A stretch of DNA of 64,000 nt, from the IMG/VR virus record IMGVR_UViG_3300035170_000083, positions 1,736-65,735 of that record; one strand, 5' to 3'. This DNA comes from a virus (Duplodnaviria > Caudoviricetes). Below the pieces are notes generated by a model. The model worked only from the letters and a program-made list of their open reading frames with translations, was not told the origin of the DNA and ran no database searches. Positions 45,604 to 53,013 of this stretch are shown piece after piece; position 1 is the first letter of the stretch; every line of letters begins with the position of its first letter. Position numbers and translations under genes: made by a program.

Positions 45604-46268
45604 ACACCTGCGGCATCTGCGGCACCGAGTGGGACCCGTCCTTCGTCAAGGAGTGCCCGGTGTGCTTCAAGTGGGCGACGGCGGCGCCCGGCGGTCCAGT
45701 CGAGCAGCTGGACCCGAACGACCCCGTCAATCGCGCCCTGGCGATGGCGGTGCTCTGCTTCAACGCGCTCTACGAGGCCGCGCAGACCTTCGTCGACGAC
45801 AAGATGCACGCCGCCCACAAGGCCGGGTTCACCGGATGGCTCGATGTGCGCGGTACCGTGGACGGCGACAAATGGATCGTGCGCCGCCGCCTCCGAGCCC
45901 ACGGCGAGAAGCTGCCCCCCGGTCGCGGCTGGTGGCACATCCCCGTCTCGCCGACCATCCTCGACGAGTTCTTCGAGCGCGTGAAGCCGGCGCCGCCGGA
46001 GGAGCCCGAGAAGGCGATTGACGTCGACGCAGCCACGGAAGAGCAGGGTGCACCGGCCCCGCTCGACGTGAACGCGCTCCTGCGCGCTCGCGCTCGCGAA
46101 GTCGATGCCCTGGCGGGGAACATGTGGCGCACGAAGGATGAGCTGCTGACCGCGCTCGGGGACGCCGCGGGCCCGGTCGTCGAAGTGCTGAAGGAGGCGC
46201 GGCTGGCGCTGCTCCGAATCTCCGACGCCATCGCGCGCGAGGTCGAGGCGCGCGGGACGCTCCAATAG
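45600..46268 (+). CDS. Hypothetical protein with an N-terminal Zn ribbon
   Basis: CGIC...CPVC. Confidence 0.55.
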   Translation: MNTCGICGTEWDPSFVKECPVCFKWATAAPGGPVEQLDPNDPVNRALAMAVLCFNALYEAAQTFVDDKMHAAHKAGFTGWLDVRGTVDGDKWIVRRRLRAHGEKLPPGRGWWHIPVSPTILDEFFERVKPAPPEEPEKAIDVDAATEEQGAPAPLDVNALLRARAREVDALAGNMWRTKDELLTALGDAAGPVVEVLKEARLALLRISDAIAREVEARGTLQ

Positions 46269-46270
46269 CC

Positions 46271-46672
46271 TTGGCCCGCCGGCCCGCAGAGCTGTGCGCC
46301 GTCTGCGACAACACCAACGAGACCACGCGACTGTGCCCGACCTGTCGCGCCGACCCCTCTAACCGGGATTGGATGGAGCAGAGCGAGCTCGAGCAGGGCA
46401 CCCAGGATGTGGATGTGGCGGCCGCCGGCGGCGTGCGTCTTGAGTCTGTGTTCGGCGGCAGGCGGAAGGGCGATACCGAGATGGCACGGCGAATCGTCGC
46501 CATCGCGCTCCGAGAAAAGGTCATGCGCCGCAGGCGCCGTCGGAATGCCAACGGCGATCTCCTGCGGGGATGGGTGACCGTCGAGGAGGACCTCACCCTT
46601 CGCGAGATTGCCGAGCGGGCCGGATGCTCTCGGGAGTACGCACGAAAGGTCATCAATCGGATCATCGGATGA
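46271..46672 (+). CDS. Zn-ribbon plus sigma70 region 4-like HTH protein (late regulator candidate)
   Basis: CAVC...CPTC; 'LTLREIAERAGCSREYARKVI'. Confidence 0.65.
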   Translation: MARRPAELCAVCDNTNETTRLCPTCRADPSNRDWMEQSELEQGTQDVDVAAAGGVRLESVFGGRRKGDTEMARRIVAIALREKVMRRRRRRNANGDLLRGWVTVEEDLTLREIAERAGCSREYARKVINRIIG

Positions 46673-46799
46673 GAATCAACAAGCACGAACAACGAAGCTC
46701 CATGCGCATTTCCGCGCAGCCTGGATGAGGGGAGAGTGGTTCCGGTCGACGGGAGACCTCATGCGTTTCATACGAGAGCTGAGAACCACTAAGCCGTGA
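46669..46799 (+). pseudogene. GIY-YIG (T5orf172) C-terminal remnant
   Basis: 'KLHAHFRAAWMRGEWFRSTGDLMRFIRELR' matches 'LHSHFAPLREEGEWFKSHPALLEMMTRLR' in the 38338 gene; the N-terminal part is missing. Confidence 0.6.
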
Positions 46800-46833
46800 C
46801 CTCGGTTTGTCAACTCCCTCCCCGGCTACTTGT

Positions 46834-47187
46834 ATGAGCACGGGAAAGCGGCTCGCGGACGTCGCCTTCGAGGAGTACAAGGTCACCCGCCAGATCAGCA
46901 CCGGCAACGGCGATCTCTACTGCGCTCAGTGGCGTACCCCGGGCTGGTTCATCCGCGAGGAGCTGGGCTATGACGGCCCCGTCGGCCTCCGGCTCTACAC
47001 GATGATTCCGCAGGAGCGCCTGGAAGAGCGGCACAGGGCGGCGATGGTCGTGCCGCCCCCGAAGCGCCTCAGCAAGAAGGCGAAGAAGGCGCAGGCGCGC
47101 GAGACCCGCTACAGCCGCCGCCTCAAGCTCGAGCAGCTCGAGATGCGGGCGCGGATGCAGGCGCTGGCGATGCGCCACGCCGCCTGA
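46834..47187 (+). CDS. Hypothetical basic protein
   Basis: ORF with phage-like codon usage. Confidence 0.5.
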   Translation: MSTGKRLADVAFEEYKVTRQISTGNGDLYCAQWRTPGWFIREELGYDGPVGLRLYTMIPQERLEERHRAAMVVPPPKRLSKKAKKAQARETRYSRRLKLEQLEMRARMQALAMRHAA

Positions 47188-47251
47188 CCTCGTCGTCGTC
47201 CTCCCCACACACCCAACCTGCCGCCTGTAGCACCGCGGCGAGGAGTCCATC

Positions 47252-47488
47252 ATGGCCAAGGCATTCGGCGCCACCCGGCGCGACAGCGGCGTTCGTTCGA
47301 ACCTCGGCGCGGCGGCGCGCACCGGCGGCGGCGGCGCGGCGACCGTCGCCAAGGTCGCCAACTTCCTGGCGCGCGGCGGCGGCCCCAAGGCCAACTTCGT
47401 CAACAAGGCCGGGCGGCTGAATTCCGCCCGCCCGCGCGGCGCGGCTCCCCGGGGCAAGGGCGGCGGCGCCGGCGGCAAGGAGAGCTGA
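47252..47488 (+). CDS. Gly/Arg/Ala-rich peptide 1 ending RGAAPRGKGGGAGGKES
   Basis: SD GAGGAG; paralogous to the next gene. Confidence 0.8.
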   Translation: MAKAFGATRRDSGVRSNLGAAARTGGGGAATVAKVANFLARGGGPKANFVNKAGRLNSARPRGAAPRGKGGGAGGKES

Positions 47489-47490
47489 CG

Positions 47491-47676
47491 GTGGCGCGGC
47501 AGGGATTCGGCGCTCGCGTCGCCGCGGGCGCGGCCCGGGCAGGTGACGCTGCGCTGCGCTTCCTGGGCTTGCGGCGCAACCTGTTCTTCCCGGGCGGCAA
47601 GAAGGGCGCCGGCGGTGGCCGACGCGGCGCCGCGCCTCGTGGCAAGGCCGGTGGCGCCGGTGGCAAAGAAAGCTGA
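47491..47676 (+). CDS. Gly/Arg/Ala-rich peptide 2 ending RGAAPRGKAGGAGGKES
   Basis: The last 17 codons differ from peptide 1 by 8 synonymous changes and 1 non-synonymous change. Confidence 0.8.
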   Translation: MARQGFGARVAAGAARAGDAALRFLGLRRNLFFPGGKKGAGGGRRGAAPRGKAGGAGGKES

Positions 47677-48382
47677 TCCCGGCCCCGTCCTTCCACTTCC
47701 CGAGGCCAGAGCTCTCCTGCAGCGTGCGCGCGCGGAGACCGGCCTCATCCTTGTCGCCCTGAGCGGCGGCAAGGATTCGCTCTGCACGCTGGACCTGGCG
47801 GTCGAGGTCTTCGGCCCGCGCAACGTGGTCGCGTTCTCGATGTACCTGGTCAAGGGGTTGCGCTGCTTCGAAGGGCCGATCGAAGCCGCCGCCCGCCGCT
47901 ACGGCGTTCGCGTCGAGTACGTGCCGCACTGGATGCTCGGGCGCATGTACAAGTTCGCGTACCTGATGCCGCATCGGGGCAACGCGCACGAGTGGCGCGA
48001 GACCAAGCTGACGGACATCGAGCAGCTGGTGCGGAAACGCACGGGCATCGACTGGATCGCCTACGGGCACCGCGCCGCCGAGTCGCCGCACCGGCGGGGC
48101 ATGCTCAACAGCTTCCAGGGCTTCAACGACAGGCAGAAGCGCGTGTACCCCGTGTGGCGCTGGCGGGTGGGCGACGTCTACGCGTACGTGCGGGCGCGGC
48201 GCATCCCGTTGCCGCCGACGTTCGGCACGTACCGGGCGGGCGGCGTGAGCCTCAACCCGGAAGCGCTGACCTTCATCAAGAAGCACTTCCCCGACGACTA
48301 CGGAAAGATCTTGGAGGTCTTCCCGTTCGCCGAGGTCCAGCTCAAGCGGCGGGAGCTCTACCCGCCCGAGGAAGACACATGA
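47660..48382 (+). CDS. PAPS-reductase-like PP-loop (adenine nucleotide alpha-hydrolase) protein
   Basis: 'ILVALSGGKDS', 'AYGHRAAESPHRR', 'YPVWRWRVGDVYAYV'; lacks the CC/CxxC and ECG motifs. Confidence 0.88.
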   Translation: MAKKADPGPVLPLPEARALLQRARAETGLILVALSGGKDSLCTLDLAVEVFGPRNVVAFSMYLVKGLRCFEGPIEAAARRYGVRVEYVPHWMLGRMYKFAYLMPHRGNAHEWRETKLTDIEQLVRKRTGIDWIAYGHRAAESPHRRGMLNSFQGFNDRQKRVYPVWRWRVGDVYAYVRARRIPLPPTFGTYRAGGVSLNPEALTFIKKHFPDDYGKILEVFPFAEVQLKRRELYPPEEDT

Positions 48383-49074
48383 AACTCGCCATCTGCCTCG
48401 CGGTCACGCTGCTCATCCCCGCCTGCTCATCGTCGCGTGTCGGCGTGGCCACCGGCCACCTCGACCAGGCGGCGGACATGAGCGCTGCCGCCGACATGTC
48501 CCAGGTGCCCGATTTGGCAACCGTGCCCGACATGGCGCAGCCGCTGCCGCTGGCGCTCGGAGACCGCTGCAACATCGGCGACTGCGCCTTCGTCACCGAC
48601 CTAACCGGCGATCCCTGCCCAAGCGACGGCTCGATGGACTGTCACCTGTCGTGCCCGCTCTGCGGCGCCGGCAACACCTGTACGGTGGTCGGCAATGATC
48701 CCGACGACCCGACGAAGGCGCTGACCGAGTGCGCCGGCCCGGTCTGTGGCAACGGCGATGTGGTCTGCGACCCCGGCACGCTCTGCGCCGTGCGCGGCGG
48801 CGGCGCCCACGATTGCCTGCCCCAGTGCACGAAGAACGGCGCCACGGTCTACCGGACCGGAAGTAACTGCGAGGCGCGCGGCCTGTTCCTCGACGAGCTG
48901 ACGGGCAAGTGTTTCGTGCCCTGCTTCTACGACCAGTGTCTCGACGTGGGCGACAACTACTGCGGCCTGCCGGTGGACCTCGCGCGGCGGCTGCAGGCGT
49001 CGAAGCGTAAGCACGACGCGCAACTGAGGGCGTTCCGCGCGGCCCAGCGCCATGCGGCCCCCGTGGCCCGGTGA
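48379..49074 (+). CDS. Cys-rich lipoprotein
   Basis: Lipobox IPAC; DMS/DLA/DMA linker repeats; many Cys. Confidence 0.7.
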   Translation: MKLAICLAVTLLIPACSSSRVGVATGHLDQAADMSAAADMSQVPDLATVPDMAQPLPLALGDRCNIGDCAFVTDLTGDPCPSDGSMDCHLSCPLCGAGNTCTVVGNDPDDPTKALTECAGPVCGNGDVVCDPGTLCAVRGGGAHDCLPQCTKNGATVYRTGSNCEARGLFLDELTGKCFVPCFYDQCLDVGDNYCGLPVDLARRLQASKRKHDAQLRAFRAAQRHAAPVAR

Positions 49075-49337
49075 GCGCCTTCTGGGTCTGGGTGATGCTG
49101 GCGCTGCAGCCGGCGCAGGCCACCAACAGCACCTTCGCTATCTCAGGGCCACCCATCCCGCTGAGGACGACCGGGGCGACGTTCAGCTCGTTCTCGCTCT
49201 TCCTGGTACAGGACTCCGCCCGCGTGCTGTTCAGGGTGTCGCCCGACAAGAAGGTCCACGTCACCCCGGGCGTCACCGCCGAGCACATCGCGGAGACCTG
49301 GTACCGCTACGCGTCGGAAGGGCATTGCCGGTGGTGA
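49071..49337 (+). CDS. Small exported protein
   Basis: Signal-like N-terminus; translationally coupled. Confidence 0.4.
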   Translation: MSAFWVWVMLALQPAQATNSTFAISGPPIPLRTTGATFSSFSLFLVQDSARVLFRVSPDKKVHVTPGVTAEHIAETWYRYASEGHCRW

Positions 49338-49434
49338 CCGCGCTGCGGTGGGAGGTCTATCGCCTCATGCGCCTGGGGTTTCGCCTGGTGGATGCGCTGG
49401 CCATCGCCCAGCTGACGATGGCCGAGGGACGCTG

Positions 49435-49698
49435 ATGGCCGAGGACGACGTCATCGACCTACACGAGCGGCGCAGCCAGCGCGAACAGCAGGTCGGGGCC
49501 GAGGCCCACGCGCGCGGCCAGGCCTTCGCCTTCGCGCCGTACGACTTCGACGAGACCTTCGTGGGGCACATCGAGACCAACGACAACCGGACGGTCGTGC
49601 TCATCACCGACCCCACGCAGCTGGTCGGCATCTGCATGACGCCCGAGGACGCGGTGAAGCTCGGCGCAGCCCTGGTCGCCGCAGGCAAGGTCGAGTGA
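49435..49698 (+). CDS. Hypothetical protein
   Basis: MAEDDVIDL... start; translationally coupled. Confidence 0.5.
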   Translation: MAEDDVIDLHERRSQREQQVGAEAHARGQAFAFAPYDFDETFVGHIETNDNRTVVLITDPTQLVGICMTPEDAVKLGAALVAAGKVE

Positions 49699-50579
49699 TG
49701 GCGAAGGCAGCCGCGAAGAAGCGCACGACCGACGCGCCGCCGAAGCGCACCGCCGTCCCAGCGCGCAAGCCGTCGGCCGCCACGGACCTGCTCGAGCCGC
49801 AGGGCACGCCCCCGCTGTCCAAGTACCAGGGCTACCGGCAGGGCCGGGTCGCGCGCCGCGACCTGAAGAACGCCGAGTACAACCCGCGGCAGATCGACCC
49901 CCACGCCCGCAAGGAGCTGCTGCGCATCATCCGCTCCAAGAAGCTGGTCAGCTCGCTCACCTGGAACGAGCGCACCGGCAACCTGGTCGGGGGCCACCAG
50001 CGCCTCAACATCCTGGACGCGCTGGAGAAGTCGGAGAACTACTCGCTCGACGTCGACATCGTGGACGTCTCGCTCGAGGAGGAGAAGGAGCTCAACCTCA
50101 TCCTCAACAACTTCGAGATCCAGGGGCAGTACGACCCGGTGAAGCTCGAGGCGTTGTTCGAGAGCGGGGTCAACTTCCAGAGCGCCGGCTTCCTGCCGAT
50201 GACCATCCAGACGCTCTTCCCGGAGTCGCCGCGCTTGGAGTCGATGTTCTCGGTCGCCAGCGCCCCGCCCGCCGTGCAGCGGGACATGGCGGACCTGCAG
50301 GAGCTGTCCGAGCAGGAGCGCCCGGCGGCGAAGAAGAAGCGCCAGGCGGACGAGACGCCCGAGGAGCGCATCACGCGCATGAAGGCGGAGAAGAAGCGCC
50401 ACCGCGAGGACATGTCCAAGCGGGACGACACCGAGTTCTACGCCCCGGTCATCTGCCAAAACCGGGAGGAGCGCGAGCACCTGATGGAGCGACTGGGGCT
50501 GCACCCGAACGAGCGCTACATCGACCTGCGCGTGCTCCTGGCGCACCTCGAAGTGGCGCGGATAGGCAAGGCGTCGTGA
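49698..50579 (+). CDS. ParB/Srx-like N-terminal domain protein (terminase-linked)
   Basis: 'LKNAEYNPRQI...LTWNERTGNLVGGHQRL...EEKELNLILNN..IQGQYD'. Confidence 0.9.
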   Translation: MAKAAAKKRTTDAPPKRTAVPARKPSAATDLLEPQGTPPLSKYQGYRQGRVARRDLKNAEYNPRQIDPHARKELLRIIRSKKLVSSLTWNERTGNLVGGHQRLNILDALEKSENYSLDVDIVDVSLEEEKELNLILNNFEIQGQYDPVKLEALFESGVNFQSAGFLPMTIQTLFPESPRLESMFSVASAPPAVQRDMADLQELSEQERPAAKKKRQADETPEERITRMKAEKKRHREDMSKRDDTEFYAPVICQNREEREHLMERLGLHPNERYIDLRVLLAHLEVARIGKAS

Positions 50580-50869
50580 TTCCGGTCTACGTCGTCACGC
50601 CGATCAGATTCTCCTGGCGCTGGGACGACCTCGAGCTGCGGTCGTGCAACCAGTCGCTGCTGCAGGACGGGGAGCACACGACGGCCGAGGTCGTTCGGTG
50701 GCTGGCGAGCGGAGGCTGTATCGCCATCGCCGCCTGGGTGCACACCAGTGACGGGAACCACGAGCTGAGGTTCGTTGGCGACCGCCCCTTTCAAGTCGAC
50801 GCGGCGAGGTTCATGGAGATGGCGAAGCACGGCCACGAGATGTTGCGCCGCACCGAGTTAGGCCGATGA
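50576..50869 (+). CDS. Hypothetical protein
   Basis: Coupled ORF. Confidence 0.45.
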   Translation: MIPVYVVTPIRFSWRWDDLELRSCNQSLLQDGEHTTAEVVRWLASGGCIAIAAWVHTSDGNHELRFVGDRPFQVDAARFMEMAKHGHEMLRRTELGR

Positions 50870-51063
50870 AGGTCCCCAAGCACCACCAGGCGCCCAAGGA
50901 CCTGCTCTGGTCGCTCGCCGACCGCGTGCAGGCGCACTCCGATGAGCGGCGCGAGCGCACGGGAGCGGCGGCGCAGGTGGACACCGACCTGCTGGCGCGG
51001 GCGCGGCTGTCCGGGTGGAAGCCGGTGGCGGAGCGGCGGATGCCTCCGCGGAGAGCCCCATGA
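50866..51063 (+). CDS. Hypothetical protein
   Basis: Coupled ORF. Confidence 0.4.
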   Translation: MKVPKHHQAPKDLLWSLADRVQAHSDERRERTGAAAQVDTDLLARARLSGWKPVAERRMPPRRAP

Positions 51064-51584
51064 GCAGCGACAAGTCGAAGGGCGGCCGCCCCCGCAAGCT
51101 GGACGAGGTCATCACCGTCCGCACGATGGAGGACGGCAAGGCGGTCGAGCGCAAGATGACCGTGGGCGATCGCATCCTCATGGTGGTGCGCGCCGGCAAC
51201 TTCCCGACCCCGGCCGCGGTCGCGTGCGGCGTCTCGGAGCGCGCGTTCATGGCCTGGATGAGAGCCGGGCGCGAGGGCAAGGACGAGCAGTTCGCGCAGT
51301 TTTATCAGGCCGTAAAAGAGGCCGAGAGCGAGGCCGAGGCGGTCGCGGTCGGGACCATCATGGCCAACCCCATGTGGCAGGCCAAAGCATGGTTCCTCGA
51401 GCGGAAGTTCCCCGACCGCTGGGGTCAGACCCTGAAGGTCGAGCAGAAGGTCGAGCAGGAGCTCGAGGACGCGATGGAGCGCCTGCGGGCGAGGTTGCCG
51501 CATGAGGTCTTCCAGCAAGTCGTCTCCATCCTCGCTGATGACGAGGGTGGCGAAGCGGAAGCTGGCGAGCCTTCGATCCAATAA
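51060..51584 (+). CDS. terS: Terminase small subunit-like HTH protein
   Basis: 'GRPRKL...GN..TPAAVACGVSERAFMAWM...WQAKAWFLERKFPDRWG'; precedes TerL. Confidence 0.8.
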   Translation: MSSDKSKGGRPRKLDEVITVRTMEDGKAVERKMTVGDRILMVVRAGNFPTPAAVACGVSERAFMAWMRAGREGKDEQFAQFYQAVKEAESEAEAVAVGTIMANPMWQAKAWFLERKFPDRWGQTLKVEQKVEQELEDAMERLRARLPHEVFQQVVSILADDEGGEAEAGEPSIQ

Positions 51585-53013
51585 CGCCACCGCCGAGTTC
51601 GCCAAGTACCGGGACGACCCCGAGGGCTTCGCCCGTGACGTCCTGGGCATCGACCCTTGGGCCCGCCAGGCTGAGATTCTTCGCGCTGTAGCCGCCAACG
51701 ACAAGACGGCCGTTCGGTCGGGTCACAAGATCGGCAAGTCGACCAGCTGCGCCATCCTGGCCCTCTGGTGGTACTGCACCCGGCCCCGCGCGCTGGTCGT
51801 CATGACCTCGGCGACGGATGAGCAGATCGGCAAGATCTTGTGGCCGGAGCTGCAGCGGCTCCATCGCAACGGTCGCCGGCGCATCGCCGGGCAGATGAAC
51901 GCCTCGCACCGGTCGGGCTTCAAGAGCCCCGACGGCCGGTGGATCTTCGGCATCTCGACGAACAAGACCGAGAACATGGGCGGCTACTCGGGCGCCGAGT
52001 TGCTGTTCATCGTCGACGAGGCCTCTGGTGTTGACGATGCCATCTTCAACGCCATCGAAGGCAACCGCGCCGGCGGCGCGCGGCTCATCATGTTCGGCAA
52101 CCCGACGCAGATGTCGGGGCGCTTCTACGAAGCGTTTCATGACAGCGCCGAGTTCTGGCACCCCATCCACGTTTCGAGCACCGAGTCGCCGAACGTCGTC
52201 GAGGGCCGCGTCGTCATCCCGGGCCTGGCCACGCGCGAGTACATCGACGAGAAGACGAAGGAGCTGGGCGGCCCCGGCAACAGCGAGTGGGACATCCGCA
52301 TCGGCGGAAACTTCCCGTCGCAGGGAAAGAACAGCGTCATCGGCCTGGTGCTGGTCGAGAACGCGAACAAGGACTGGCGCCAGCCAACTGTCGAGGACGG
52401 CCCCTTGGAGATTGGCGTCGACGTCGCGCGCTACGGCGACGACGAGACGGTCATCTGGGCGCGCCGGGGGAAGTTCCTGTACGAGCCGACGGTCATCCGC
52501 AGCATGGACGGACCGGAGGTCGCAGGCGCAGTTCTGGAGCTAGTGCGCGAGCTGCGCCATCGCACGGTGAAGCGCGTGGGCACACTGACGACCACGGGGC
52601 AGGAGATTGAGTCCATCGAGCTCGAACGCCCGCTGGTCAAGATCGACTCCATCGGCGTGGGCTCCAGCCCCTACGACGTCCTCAAGCGCAGCAAAGAGGT
52701 CAAGACCGTCGCCGTCGACGCCGGGTGCACGGCCGACAACGAAGAGGACTTCTTCAACCTGCGCTCTCAGCTGTGGTTCGCGCTGCAGAGCTGGCTGGCC
52801 GAGGGCGGCAAGTTCAAGCACGACCGGATGGCGCGCGGCGAGCTGCTGGCCCCCGTCTACGGCTTCGACGCACGCGGGCGCAAGCAGGTCGAGTCGAAGG
52901 ACCAGATCAAGAAGCGCATCCATCGGTCCCCGGACCGCGCTGACGCGATGGCGCTGGCCATCTACAAGGCTCCCGTGCGGAAGGGTCGCACCGGCGAGAC
53001 CTACTACGAGTAG
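51538..53013 (+). CDS. terL: Terminase large subunit
   Basis: Walker A 'RSGHKIGKS', Walker B 'FIVDEASG', 'GNP', nuclease motifs 'GVDVARYGDD' and 'SPDRADA'. Confidence 0.95.
   Translation: MTRVAKRKLASLRSNNATAEFAKYRDDPEGFARDVLGIDPWARQAEILRAVAANDKTAVRSGHKIGKSTSCAILALWWYCTRPRALVVMTSATDEQIGKILWPELQRLHRNGRRRIAGQMNASHRSGFKSPDGRWIFGISTNKTENMGGYSGAELLFIVDEASGVDDAIFNAIEGNRAGGARLIMFGNPTQMSGRFYEAFHDSAEFWHPIHVSSTESPNVVEGRVVIPGLATREYIDEKTKELGGPGNSEWDIRIGGNFPSQGKNSVIGLVLVENANKDWRQPTVEDGPLEIGVDVARYGDDETVIWARRGKFLYEPTVIRSMDGPEVAGAVLELVRELRHRTVKRVGTLTTTGQEIESIELERPLVKIDSIGVGSSPYDVLKRSKEVKTVAVDAGCTADNEEDFFNLRSQLWFALQSWLAEGGKFKHDRMARGELLAPVYGFDARGRKQVESKDQIKKRIHRSPDRADAMALAIYKAPVRKGRTGETYYE

What the first reader, a model, noticed from the sequence alone, without database searches (positions are those of the whole stretch)
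47252..50579. Two paralogous basic peptides plus a PP-loop enzyme and ParB ahead of terminase: candidate peptide-conjugation or DNA-modification system
Seen: two tandem small genes (78 and 61 aa) are rich in Gly, Arg, Ala and Lys. They have similar N-termini (MAKAFGA / MARQGFGA) and a near-identical 17-aa C-terminus, RGAAPRGK(G/A)GGAGGKES. Those 17 codons carry 8 synonymous changes and only 1 non-synonymous change, so selection acts on the peptide tail. Peptide 2 overlaps the start of a PAPS-reductase-fold PP-loop protein (SGGKDS) that lacks the Fe-S cysteines and the catalytic ECG. A ParB/Srx-domain gene follows, then terS and terL. Known: PP-loop enzymes such as TilS, ThiI, QueC and DndC adenylate a substrate and then ligate a nucleophile, and ParB-terminase loci often host DNA-modifying enzymes. 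Inference: the peptides are substrates. They may be ligated to DNA or to each other through the Lys or the C-terminus, or matured RiPP-style into protamine-like core proteins at packaging, which could protect DNA from host defences. I know of no characterised system of this form.
Basis: partly seen in the sequence, partly recalled or inferred. Interest (0 to 1): 0.85.

Follow-up and report, generated by a model that had tools for sequence, protein, structure and literature searches.

The report
Tiny basic partner proteins of phage PP-loop enzyme
Two tiny, very basic, glycine-rich phage proteins are real genes from an unnamed family that sits directly in front of a mislabelled "PAPS reductase" ATP-activating enzyme and its ParB-like partner in many unrelated phages, so the three probably work together on phage DNA by a chemistry nobody has measured.

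Summary
The two small genes are 47252-47488 and 47491-47676. Each has its own ribosome-binding site. Their shared 17-codon tails differ by 8 synonymous changes and 1 non-synonymous change (P about 0.001).

By a simple rule, 19 of 32 loci with this type of PP-loop enzyme carry a tiny basic ORF that ends at the enzyme's start. Random anchor positions give about 5%, and distant PP-loop loci give 1 of 12. Positive loci range from 34% to 69% GC and include cultured Bacteroides and Riemerella phages. On the enzyme tree, all positives fall in one clade with 100/100 support. No Pfam or PHROG family covers these small proteins.

The enzyme is a PP-loop ATP pyrophosphatase with no conserved cysteine, so it is not a true PAPS reductase. 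The ParB-like fold is confirmed.

The peptide-as-substrate idea remains untested. The co-fold gave no verdict, and no RNA data exist.

My best reading is that the small proteins are a dedicated polycationic partner that binds nucleic acid or docks onto the enzyme pair. Covalent substrate is the main rival.

The scan has already found the same motif on other DNA (e1-5982918, e1-6316074).

The parts
47240..47245 (+). Shine-Dalgarno-like GAGGAG, 6 nt before the pep1 ATG
   Evidence: read directly from the sequence
47252..47488 (+). pep1: 78-aa basic Gly/Ala/Arg/Lys-rich protein, predicted disordered. Member of a small orthologous family (P0002, P0003, P0093, P0094, P0095).
   Evidence: ORF; GC3 0.92; homologues; the Atlas's own model has pLDDT 0.38; no Pfam, PHROG or NCBIfam hit
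47435..47485 (+). pep1 C-terminal tail RGAAPRGKGGGAGGKES. Its AAGGAG (47477-47482) doubles as the ribosome-binding site of pep2.
   Evidence: 8 synonymous and 1 non-synonymous change against the pep2 tail, P 0.00097
47491..47676 (+). pep2: 61-aa paralogue of pep1, GTG start. Its end overlaps the start of the PP-loop gene.
   Evidence: ORF; tail comparison; no homologue other than itself in the 5.8-billion-protein word search
47623..47673 (+). pep2 C-terminal tail RGAAPRGKAGGAGGKES
47651..48382 (+). PAPS-reductase-fold PP-loop ATP pyrophosphatase (IbrA-like in domain type, no DUF3440). Start is GTG 47651 or 47660.
   Evidence: PF01507 E 3.2e-11; phrog_2302 and phrog_424; 88 homologues; AF2 pLDDT 89.4; Foldseek best matches TtuA, LarE, APS reductase, TilS; no invariant Cys
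48379..49074 (+). 231-aa Cys-rich ORF with a signal-peptide/lipoprotein-like N-terminus, inserted between the PP-loop and ParB-like genes. Probably a moron, not part of the cassette.
   Evidence: ORF with GC3 0.89; no Pfam, PHROG or NCBIfam hit. The lipoprotein-like reading is by eye only.
49348..49698 (+). 116-aa ORF of unknown function
   Evidence: no Pfam or NCBIfam hit
49695..50579 (+). ParB/Srx-fold protein (IbrB-like in domain type). The first ~45 residues are basic and modelled with low confidence.
   Evidence: phrog_9353 E 1.9e-50 and phrog_620 E 1.1e-15; profile hit to Spo0J 6sdk E 3.5e-4; AF2 pLDDT 75.9; Foldseek best matches ParB-CDP, Noc, KorB, sulfiredoxin; invariant G100 H101 Q102 R103
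50576..50869 (+). 97-aa ORF of unknown function
   Evidence: no hits
51015..51584 (+). terminase small subunit
   Evidence: phrog_4102 E 5.7e-20
51502..53013 (+). terminase large subunit
   Evidence: phrog_2 E 4e-35; tblastn to annotated terminases

Best explanation
pep1 and pep2 are genuine protein-coding genes. They belong to an unnamed family of tiny (about 30-90 aa), polycationic, Gly/Ala/Ser-rich proteins that are predicted to be disordered. This family is a third, translationally coupled component of the widespread phage cassette 'PAPS-reductase-like PP-loop enzyme + ParB-like protein', which sits ahead of the terminase genes.

SHOWN. The reading frame, the selection on it, the tight coupling to the enzyme gene, and the recurrent synteny across distant phage lineages.

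INFERRED. The small protein is a dedicated partner of the enzyme pair. Its polycationic body binds the nucleic-acid substrate, and its conserved basic Gly-rich tail docks on the enzyme. The cysteine-free PP-loop enzyme, which has no DNA-binding domain, could then adenylate a target on phage DNA with help from the ParB-like protein, around the time of packaging. In this phage the partner gene has duplicated.
For: CODING. The tails differ by 8 synonymous and 1 non-synonymous change. GC3 is the highest codon position in 14 of 15 small ORFs from loci with GC of at least 0.56. For L027/L119, differences by codon position are 5/2/10, with 10 synonymous-only and 5 non-synonymous codons. For L006/L118 they are 17/16/30. 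Ribosome-binding sites precede the starts.

LINKAGE. 19 of 32 IbrA-type loci have such an ORF ending within -100 to +45 nt of the enzyme's start. Random anchors in the same loci give 5.3%, and distant PP-loop loci without ParB give 1 of 12. With a Lys-rich filter, 14 of the 18 passing ORFs, out of 1,588 small ORFs in 186 kb, lie at that one position.

COUPLING. Stop and start overlap or lie a few nt apart.

BREADTH. Positive loci include low-GC DNA where chance ORFs are rare: L018 at GC 0.34, L115 at 0.43, Bacteroides phage BS-TP2 gp53, and Riemerella phage RAP44. All 22 positives (19 by rule, 3 by eye) fall in one clade of 29 rows with 100/100 support on the enzyme tree.

DNA LINK OF THE ENZYME. 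Homologues occur fused to a ParB-like domain (P0057) or to an HNH/AP2-like C-terminal domain, the latter named by eye only (P0005, P0006, P0008, P0010-P0013). A ParB-like gene lies downstream in 16 of the 19 positive loci.

PRECEDENTS IN PRINT. A phage ParB homologue activates a DNA-modifying dioxygenase (PMC13229309, abstract and passages read). A YejK-like nucleoid protein is found in operons with a PAPS reductase, some also with Arc and ParBc proteins (bioRxiv 10.64898/2026.04.06.716658, sections 11 and 40 read).
Against: No experiment or computation here shows binding to DNA or to the enzyme.

Across clades the family is recognisable only by composition, position, an MA- N-terminus and an (R/K)RGK-type Gly-rich tail. 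It is not recognisable by significant sequence similarity, so common descent across clades is not shown.

13 of 32 IbrA-type loci fail the rule. Three of these look similar by eye, so the partner is not obligatory.

In this window the ParB-like gene lies about 1.3 kb downstream, with two unrelated ORFs between.

Conserved tails among tandem paralogues fit a recognition tag on a substrate at least as well as a docking motif.

Sampling is biased: 15 loci came from a single DNA-motif scan of one clade.
Confidence: 0.42

Rival explanations
1. Covalent substrate or carrier. The PP-loop enzyme adenylates the peptide, or adenylates a DNA phosphate or base that a peptide amine then attacks. This yields a modified peptide, a peptide-peptide product or a peptide-DNA conjugate.
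For: Within this genome the tail is conserved between paralogues while the rest has diverged. The ortholog P0093 keeps a near-identical RGAARRGKAGG tail. Tandem short genes directly before a modifying enzyme, with tight translational coupling, resemble precursor-enzyme arrangements. The best structural matches of the enzyme include TtuA, which takes the flexible Gly-Gly tail of TtuB into its active site (the TtuA-TtuB mechanism is recalled). Earlier scan notes report shared C-terminal tags among tandem basic peptides in other phages (unchecked).
Against: The C-terminal residue and the last five residues vary widely across the family (KES, GGG, SKG, SGQ, SDD, KDG, EAS, GAI). No residue apart from Met1 is invariant. 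No Cys is present. No recognised RiPP enzyme class is in the cassette. Part of the tail may be constrained by the ribosome-binding site of the next gene (AAGGAG in pep1).
Confidence: 0.25
2. Independent DNA-condensing or virion core proteins (protamine/H1-like). They are merely co-transcribed with the late packaging operon and have no functional tie to the PP-loop enzyme.
For: They have polycationic, disordered composition, and some members look like H1 tails (L006, L118, L010). They lie at the head of the packaging genes.
Against: Their position is tied to the PP-loop gene, not to the terminase. The stop overlaps or abuts the enzyme's start in nearly all positive loci. The ORF also follows the enzyme in loci that have different upstream neighbours (Dcd-like in L119, ASCH-annotated in BS-TP2). 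It is absent from the 4-row sister clade of PP-loop genes.
Confidence: 0.12
3. A translational-coupling device. The small ORF exists mainly to deliver ribosomes to a PP-loop gene that lacks a good start of its own, and the peptide product has no function.
For: In 10 loci of one clade the enzyme's first aligned codon is CTG (GTG in L119) and overlaps the small ORF's TGA as CTGAC. No canonical start lies nearby.
Against: The amino-acid sequence is under purifying selection. The unusual composition is maintained from 34% to 69% GC. In L115, L009 and L010 the enzyme has its own start after a gap. Duplication into two paralogues, as in this window, serves no coupling purpose.
Confidence: 0.08
4. 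Chance ORFs in GC-rich DNA or a non-coding repeat.
For: High-GC DNA is full of open frames (98 ORFs of at least 40 aa in 12 kb). pep2's GC3 is not the highest of its three positions.
Against: 8 of the 9 tail differences fall at codon position 3. Orthologues are found by HMMER at E values down to 7.8e-19. The same kind of ORF occurs in loci with 34-43% GC.
Confidence: 0.02

Closest known systems
Phage/prophage 'PAPS reductase' + 'ParB-like nuclease' gene pairs ahead of the terminase (IbrA/IbrB type; E. coli YbdN/YbdM)
   Same: Same two domain types, in the same order and at the same place: a PP-loop PAPS_reduct protein, then a ParB-fold protein, then terS/terL. Seen in RAP44, BS-TP2, LR1 and JNU_P7. 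[quoted passage not shown]
   Different: The window's enzyme has 240 aa and no DUF3440. It is only 21% identical to YbdN (E 3e-4). The ParB-like protein shows no significant pairwise similarity to YbdM (E 0.63). The small basic partner gene is not part of any description I found. In RAP44 it is unannotated, and in BS-TP2 it is a 'hypothetical protein'.
Dnd DNA phosphorothioation (DndB ParB-like, DndC PAPS-reductase-like, DndE small DNA-binding protein). The roles given here are recalled, apart from the DndB and DndC remarks in PMC12839542 (passages read).
   Same: A PAPS-reductase-fold ATP pyrophosphatase teamed with a ParB-fold protein and a small DNA-binding protein, acting on DNA.
   Different: The enzyme here has no conserved cysteine, so sulfur chemistry of the DndC type is unlikely. 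DndE is a folded protein, whereas these are predicted to be disordered. I did not search the record for DndA or DndD.
TtuA-TtuB (a PP-loop enzyme with a small partner whose flexible Gly-Gly C-terminus enters the active site)
   Same: TtuA chains, including the TtuA-TtuB complex 5gha, are among the best structural matches of the enzyme model. In both cases the partner is small and has a Gly-rich tail.
   Different: TM-scores are only about 0.5, which is general PP-loop fold similarity. There are no Fe-S cysteines. The partners here are polycationic and disordered rather than beta-grasp, and their C-terminal residues are not conserved.
ParB-dependent phage thymine dioxygenases (PMC13229309)
   Same: A phage ParB homologue that lacks an obvious DNA-binding domain is required to activate a neighbouring DNA-modifying enzyme.
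   Different: The enzyme class differs (Fe/2OG dioxygenase), and no small basic protein is described there.
PANGU-like operons pairing a YejK-type nucleoid protein with a PAPS reductase, some with Arc and ParBc proteins (bioRxiv 10.64898/2026.04.06.716658, sections 11 and 40)
   Same: A DNA-coating protein genetically coupled to a PAPS-reductase-family enzyme and a ParB-domain protein.
   Different: That nucleoid protein is a folded protein of about 333 aa from bacterial defence islands, not a phage mini-protein of 30-90 aa. Its clusters 8 and 9 are only catalogued, not tested.

Membership tests
PAPS_reduct / PP-loop ATP pyrophosphatase superfamily | PP-loop motif SGGKDS and a Pfam PF01507 match above the gathering score | tested here: met
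   44 bits against a cut-off of 22.5, E 3.2e-11. S38 G39 G40 K41 D42 S43 are invariant in 26 homologues.
PAPS_reduct / PP-loop ATP pyrophosphatase superfamily | Adenine nucleotide alpha-hydrolase fold | tested here: met
   AF2 model with pLDDT 89.4. Foldseek finds 172 PDB matches at E<=0.001, led by TtuA, LarE, APS reductase, TilS and the FAD synthase PAPS domain.
True PAPS/APS reductase (CysH) | C-terminal catalytic Cys in an ECG(L/I)H motif (motif recalled) | tested here: not met
   The protein ends ...RRELYPPEEDT and contains no ECG. No Cys column is invariant. The NCBIfam cysH models score far below their cut-offs.
Fe-S PP-loop enzymes (TtuA, DndC, APS reductase) | Conserved cysteines that ligate the cluster | tested here: not met
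   The protein has only two Cys, and neither is invariant across the 26 homologues.
IbrA / YbdN | PAPS_reduct domain followed by DUF3440 | tested here: not met
   PF01507 is the only Pfam hit. The protein has 240-243 aa against 405 aa for YbdN. The pairwise comparison gives 21% identity and E 3e-4 over the PP-loop domain only.
IbrA / YbdN | A ParB-like partner gene next to it | tested here: met
   A ParB-like gene lies on the same strand downstream in 16 of the 19 rule-positive loci, usually within 40 nt. In the window it lies 1.3 kb downstream.
ParB/Srx fold (IbrB-like) | ParB N-terminal domain fold with a GxxR-type box | tested here: met
   Profile hit to Spo0J 6sdk at E 3.5e-4. Foldseek best match is ParB-CDP at E 9e-6, and sulfiredoxin is also matched. 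G100 H101 Q102 R103 are invariant in 12 sequences. Pfam gave no hit at E<=0.01.
IbrB / YbdM orthology | Significant sequence similarity to YbdM | tested here: not met
   BLASTP E 0.63.
Ubiquitin-like sulfur carriers / C-terminally activated small proteins (TtuB, ThiS, Pup) | An invariant C-terminal Gly-Gly (or GGQ/E) and a defined fold or tag (features recalled) | tested here: not met
   The C-termini end in S, G, K, R, D, Q, H or I. The Atlas model of pep1 has pLDDT 0.38.
RiPP precursor plus maturase | A recognised RiPP enzyme class next to precursor genes | tested here: not met
   Pfam, PHROG and NCBIfam scans of the neighbouring genes found only PAPS_reduct, ParB-like and terminase families. 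Whether this PP-loop enzyme could itself be a new maturase cannot be tested with these tools.
Histone H1 / protamine-like or nucleoid-associated proteins | Demonstrated DNA binding or condensation, or membership of a named family | not testable with these tools
   The similarity is in composition only. None of the 12 small proteins scanned has a Pfam or PHROG family.

The most novel reading that the evidence does not exclude
The cysteine-free PP-loop enzyme uses ATP to activate a phosphate or a base on phage DNA, for example the ends newly cut by terminase. A lysine or terminal amine of the polycationic mini-protein then attacks that activated site. Short basic peptides would thereby become covalently attached to packaged DNA, with the ParB-like protein loading or timing the reaction. 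This would be a peptide-type DNA hypermodification, or end-capping, that neutralises charge and blocks host nucleases.
Probability: 0.1. Interest if true: 0.95.

Novelty: new variant of a known kind. Interest (0 to 1): 0.6.

Why it matters
The 'PAPS reductase + ParB-like' pair is among the commonest uncharacterised cassettes next to phage terminases. It is routinely misread as a sulfur-metabolism gene: a myxophage survey calls it cysH (bioRxiv 10.64898/2026.09.14.751636, passage read).

Showing that a large clade of these enzymes comes with a dedicated, translationally coupled polycationic mini-protein has three consequences:
- It adds a missing component that any reconstitution experiment would need.
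- It argues for a nucleic-acid or peptide target rather than a metabolic role.
- It exposes a systematic annotation error. Gene callers skip the small gene and instead extend the enzyme ORF through it in the wrong frame.

Two cultured phages, Bacteroides phage BS-TP2 and Riemerella phage RAP44, carry the arrangement. The question is therefore directly testable at the bench.

Tried and rejected
PROGRAMMED -1 FRAMESHIFT fusing the small protein to the enzyme. I considered this because, in one clade, the enzyme's frame stays open through the whole small ORF. I rejected it. There is no conserved in-phase slippery heptamer, and Lys is almost always AAG. Substitutions are fewest at position 3 of the enzyme's frame: 10/5/2 for L027/L119 when recounted.

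N-TERMINAL EXTENSIONS of the enzyme in database proteins (P0014, P0015, P0018, P0023). These are out-of-frame readings of the small gene, not real domains.

CO-FOLD of the enzyme (alignment A3) with pep1 (alignment A1). No verdict: score 0.01 against a mark of 0.32. This is neither support nor evidence against binding.

RNA EVIDENCE. No RNA holder is listed among the public runs. Laying three DNA contig sets on 46800-48400 gave mostly GC-rich cross-matches and nothing usable on variation or expression.

ATLAS LOOK-ALIKES of pep1. No usable feature hit, and structure hits are below TM 0.5.

PROFILE FAMILY SEARCHES. Pfam, PHROG and NCBIfam found nothing for pep1 and pep2; Pfam and PHROG found nothing for 10 further small proteins.

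PROMOTER/TERMINATOR SCAN of 46000-51600. Nothing above the shuffled controls.

Dcd-LIKE GENE. One lies upstream in the sister clade (L119), but the window's record has none.

The peptide-alignment scans of viral and metagenome contigs gave no tblastn-confirmed locus. P0007 gave nothing in viral contigs. Whether those phages also carry two tandem peptides is therefore unknown.

RULE VARIANTS. A first version of the co-occurrence rule that also demanded at least 10% Gly gave 13 of 44 loci, against 1.3% background. I replaced it with the simpler charge/hydrophobicity rule and report both. Before counting I dropped L117 (same contig as L027), L013 (its best upstream ORF is the same as that of L012), L004 (no PP-loop hit), and L110 and L121 (fewer than 150 nt upstream).

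SUPPLEMENTS. Supplementary files of papers were not opened. The cluster tables of the PANGU preprint and the BREX paper's supplements might list small neighbouring ORFs that I could not see.

Full report
WHAT THE WINDOW IS. The window is 64 kb of a 65.7-kb linear IMG/VR virus record, estimated 83% complete, with 62-71% GC. The finding lies at the head of the packaging genes. terS (51015-51584, phrog_4102, E 5.7e-20) and terL (51502-53013, phrog_2, E 4e-35) follow it.

THE OBSERVATION.
- pep1 (47252-47488, 78 aa) has an ATG preceded at 6 nt by GAGGAG.
- pep2 (47491-47676, 61 aa) has a GTG preceded at 8 nt by AAGGAG. That AAGGAG is formed by pep1's own Lys-Glu codons.
- The two 17-codon tails (47435-47485 and 47623-47673) differ at 9 nucleotides. 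Eight of these are third codon positions, giving 8 synonymous codons and 1 non-synonymous codon (binomial P 0.00097).
- Translated in the other two frames, the same stretches agree at only 7 of 16 and 8 of 16 residues.
- pep1 has GC3 0.92. pep2 has GC3 0.77, below its GC1 of 0.81, so for pep2 it is the tail comparison that identifies the frame.

The PP-loop gene matches PF01507 (44 bits, cut-off 22.5) and the phage families phrog_2302 and phrog_424. Its longest ORF starts at 47543, but 25 homologues align only from about LPLPEARALL. The real start is therefore probably GTG 47651 (as in the database protein P0004) or GTG 47660, overlapping pep2 by 17-26 nt. The ParB-like gene (49695-50579) is not adjacent to it: a 231-aa Cys-rich ORF (48379-49074) and a 116-aa ORF (49348-49698) lie between.

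pep1 IS A MEMBER OF A REAL PROTEIN FAMILY. The word-based search of 5.8 billion proteins found two relatives, P0002 (71 aa) and P0003 (47 aa). An exhaustive HMMER profile search of 1.84 billion representatives found four at E<=0.001: P0003, P0093, P0094 and P0095, with E from 7.8e-19 to 4e-4. They share MAK..GATRR.S.V...LGAAARTGGGG..TI.KV..FL...ANFV...G.LN followed by a basic Gly-rich tail. P0093 ends RGAARRGKAGGGGSSG, close to the window's tail. P0003 is recorded on a contig of 55,524 bases. pep2 has no database relative other than itself, so the duplication may be specific to this lineage.

THE CO-OCCURRENCE TEST. I collected DNA around relatives of the PP-loop enzyme from five sources:
- metagenome and genome contigs, using an alignment of 26 homologues;
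- viral contigs, using ParB-like and PP-loop queries;
- a degenerate DNA motif for the W..YGHR..(D/E)S..R..M block (15 loci, all confirmed as relatives by hmmsearch);
- eight GenBank phages found by tblastn;
- the window itself.

The recurrent pattern is a very basic ORF of 29-77 aa, read from its own start codon, whose stop overlaps or abuts the enzyme's start. It has almost no acidic residues and is rich in Gly, Ala and Ser. It usually begins MA- and ends in small residues.

With a simple rule, 19 of 32 IbrA-type loci are positive. The rule is: 25-95 aa; net charge per residue at least 0.18; at most 25% FWYILMVC; stop within -100 to +45 nt of the enzyme's start. Random anchors in the same loci give 5.3%, and distant PP-loop loci that lack a ParB neighbour give 1 of 12. 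L009, L111 and BS-TP2 gp53 miss the rule but look alike by eye. One rule-positive, L003, is a weak 27-aa TTG ORF. A stricter first rule gave 13 of 44 loci against 1.3% background. A Lys-rich filter passes only 18 of 1,588 small ORFs in 23 loci (186 kb), and 14 of those 18 sit at this one position.

Positive loci include DNA where chance ORFs are rare:
- a Clostridia MAG at 34% GC (L018: MATLKQAIARVSGGGSAASRFRKSARTSARAFAQSGALGAAARRRKSLGGKGG, with AAAGGAGG before its ATG);
- L115 at 43% GC;
- Bacteroides phage BS-TP2 gp53 at 38% GC (annotated hypothetical, lying between an ASCH-annotated gene and the 'PAPS reductase');
- an unannotated 44-aa ORF in Riemerella phage RAP44.

No such ORF was seen in JNU_P7, Pm86, LR1, BigBern1, CA1NRNZ, Morgana, L005, L007 or L008.

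On a maximum-likelihood tree of 33 enzyme sequences, all 22 positives (19 by rule, 3 by eye) fall in one clade of 29 rows with 100/100 support and occur in each of its main branches. The other clade, four GenBank phages, has none. The label needs 6 changes on the tree (4 forced by well-supported branches), and 3 of 500 shuffles give as few. The sample is not independent: many loci come from one motif scan and several are close relatives.

WHICH FRAME IS REAL IN THE RELATIVES. In ten loci of one clade the enzyme's own frame is also open for 50-96 codons (145 in L006) upstream. Public gene calls (P0014, P0015, P0018, P0023) extend the enzyme through that stretch. Three observations show the small ORF is the coding frame:
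- GC3 is the highest position in the small-ORF frame in 14 of 15 small ORFs from loci with GC of at least 0.56.
- For L027/L119, differences by small-ORF codon position are 5/2/10, with 10 synonymous-only and 5 non-synonymous codons. For L006/L118 they are 17/16/30. In the enzyme's frame those same differences would be fewest at position 3.
- The conserved 'RRR' of the supposed extension is the AGGAGG ribosome-binding site of the small ORF (read by eye from the sequence; not printed by any search).

No in-phase slippery heptamer is conserved, so a frameshift fusion is unlikely. A side effect is that in this clade the enzyme's first aligned codon is CTG (GTG in L119), overlapping the small ORF's stop as CTGAC. 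This suggests termination-coupled initiation.

WHAT THE ENZYMES ARE.
- PP-loop protein. Its AF2 model is confident (pLDDT 89.4). Foldseek's best matches are PP-loop ATP pyrophosphatases: TtuA (including the TtuA-TtuB complex), LarE, APS reductase, TilS and the FAD synthase PAPS domain, at TM about 0.5. The invariant columns among 26 homologues contain the PP-loop and several Arg, His, Trp, Tyr and Asp residues but no Cys, and there is no ECG motif. It is therefore not a PAPS reductase and not an Fe-S thiolase. It is only remotely like E. coli YbdN (21% identity, E 3e-4, no DUF3440). 'IbrA-like' thus describes its domain type and gene context, not orthology.
- ParB-like protein. It has no Pfam hit at E<=0.01. 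It matches ParB-like PHROGs, Spo0J by profile (E 3.5e-4), and ParB-CDP, Noc, KorB and sulfiredoxin by fold. It shows no significant pairwise similarity to YbdM.
- Links to DNA. Homologues of the enzyme occur fused to a ParB-like domain (P0057) or to a C-terminal domain that I read by eye as HNH/AP2-like, without a profile test (P0005, P0006, P0008, P0010-P0013).

HOW IT MOST LIKELY WORKS. What is shown: a small polycationic protein is co-inherited with, and translationally coupled to, a cysteine-free PP-loop enzyme that itself travels with a ParB-fold protein ahead of the terminase. What is inferred: the mini-protein is a dedicated partner. Its charge suits nucleic-acid binding. Its conserved basic Gly-rich tail, (R/P)RGK(A/G)..GG, recurs as RRGKAGKKAGTSGGG in L027 and RGAARRGKAGG in P0093, and would dock it to the enzyme. 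The enzyme would adenylate a target on phage DNA, with the ParB-like protein acting as loader or activator. A phage ParB is known to do this for a thymine dioxygenase (PMC13229309). A PAPS-reductase-family enzyme paired with a DNA-coating protein, and with Arc and ParBc proteins, has been catalogued in bacterial operons (bioRxiv 10.64898/2026.04.06.716658, sections 11 and 40).

The within-genome conservation of the tail between diverged paralogues favours it. The lack of any conserved C-terminal residue across the family counts against it. Nothing I could run separates the two.

LITERATURE. Seven full-text searches found no biochemical characterisation of phage PAPS-reductase-like/ParB-like pairs and no mention of a small basic partner. 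[quoted passage not shown] The ParB-CTPase survey (bioRxiv 10.1101/2025.10.10.680097) contains none of the six terms I searched it for, such as PAPS and phosphoadenosine.

EARLIER SCAN NOTES. After my own tests I looked up the scan's notes. The PP-loop/ParB-like cassette has been noted many times (153 notes hold the search words). One followed-up note, e1-5982918, describes the same thing on other DNA: two tiny basic glycine-tailed proteins in front of the PP-loop enzyme and a ParB-like gene. Two first-reader notes describe tandem basic peptides with a shared C-terminal tag (e1-6316074) or an H1-like peptide in such a cassette (e1-6227286). These are unchecked AI notes. They agree with my reading but are not independent evidence.

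VERDICT. The link between the peptides and the enzyme is supported by comparative data. The proposed chemistry is open. This is a new, unannotated component of a known but uncharacterised kind of phage cassette.

Noticed in passing
L027:7990-8010, and the same junction in L006, L107, L108, L109, L113, L116, L118, L119, L120: In ten related loci (nine with CTG, L119 with GTG) the PP-loop gene's first aligned codon overlaps the small ORF's stop as CTGAC, and no ATG, GTG or TTG lies nearby. This suggests termination-coupled initiation at a non-canonical codon.
   Followed up: partly
database proteins P0014, P0015, P0018, P0023 (relatives of window 47651-48382): Public gene calls give these enzymes 50-96-aa N-terminal 'extensions' rich in R/E/G/Q. 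These are the small basic gene read in the wrong frame, so the small gene goes unannotated.
   Followed up: yes
database proteins P0005, P0006, P0008, P0010-P0013 and P0057: Close homologues of the PP-loop enzyme carry a C-terminal domain that I read by eye as HNH/AP2-like. One (P0057) is fused to a ParB-like domain. Both point to DNA as the place of action.
   Followed up: no
window 48379-49074: A 231-aa Cys-rich ORF (GC3 0.89) with a lipoprotein-like signal sequence (MKLAICLAVTLLIPAC, judged by eye) is inserted between the PP-loop and ParB-like genes. It matches no family and may be a moron such as a surface or exclusion protein.
   Followed up: no
L119:1795-2646 and the same positions in L006, L027, L107, L109, L113, L120: In the sister clade the cassette is preceded by a dCTP-deaminase-like gene (PF22769, E 1.9e-33) and a conserved 79-aa protein with no Pfam hit. 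The window's record has no Dcd-like gene.
   Followed up: partly
L124:2300-2434 (Riemerella phage RAP44) and L128:1773-1934 (Bacteroides phage BS-TP2 gp53): Two cultured phages carry the small basic ORF directly before their 'PAPS reductase'. In RAP44 it is not annotated at all.
   Followed up: partly
window 49695-49830: The first ~45 residues of the ParB-like protein (MMAKAAAKKRTTDAPPKRTAVPARKPSA...) are basic, low-complexity and modelled with low confidence. They resemble the small proteins in composition.
   Followed up: no
window 46271-46672: A 133-aa ORF two genes upstream of pep1 has a weak sigma-70 region-4/HTH match (E 1.4e-4, below the Pfam cut-off). It may be a late-gene regulator.
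   Followed up: no
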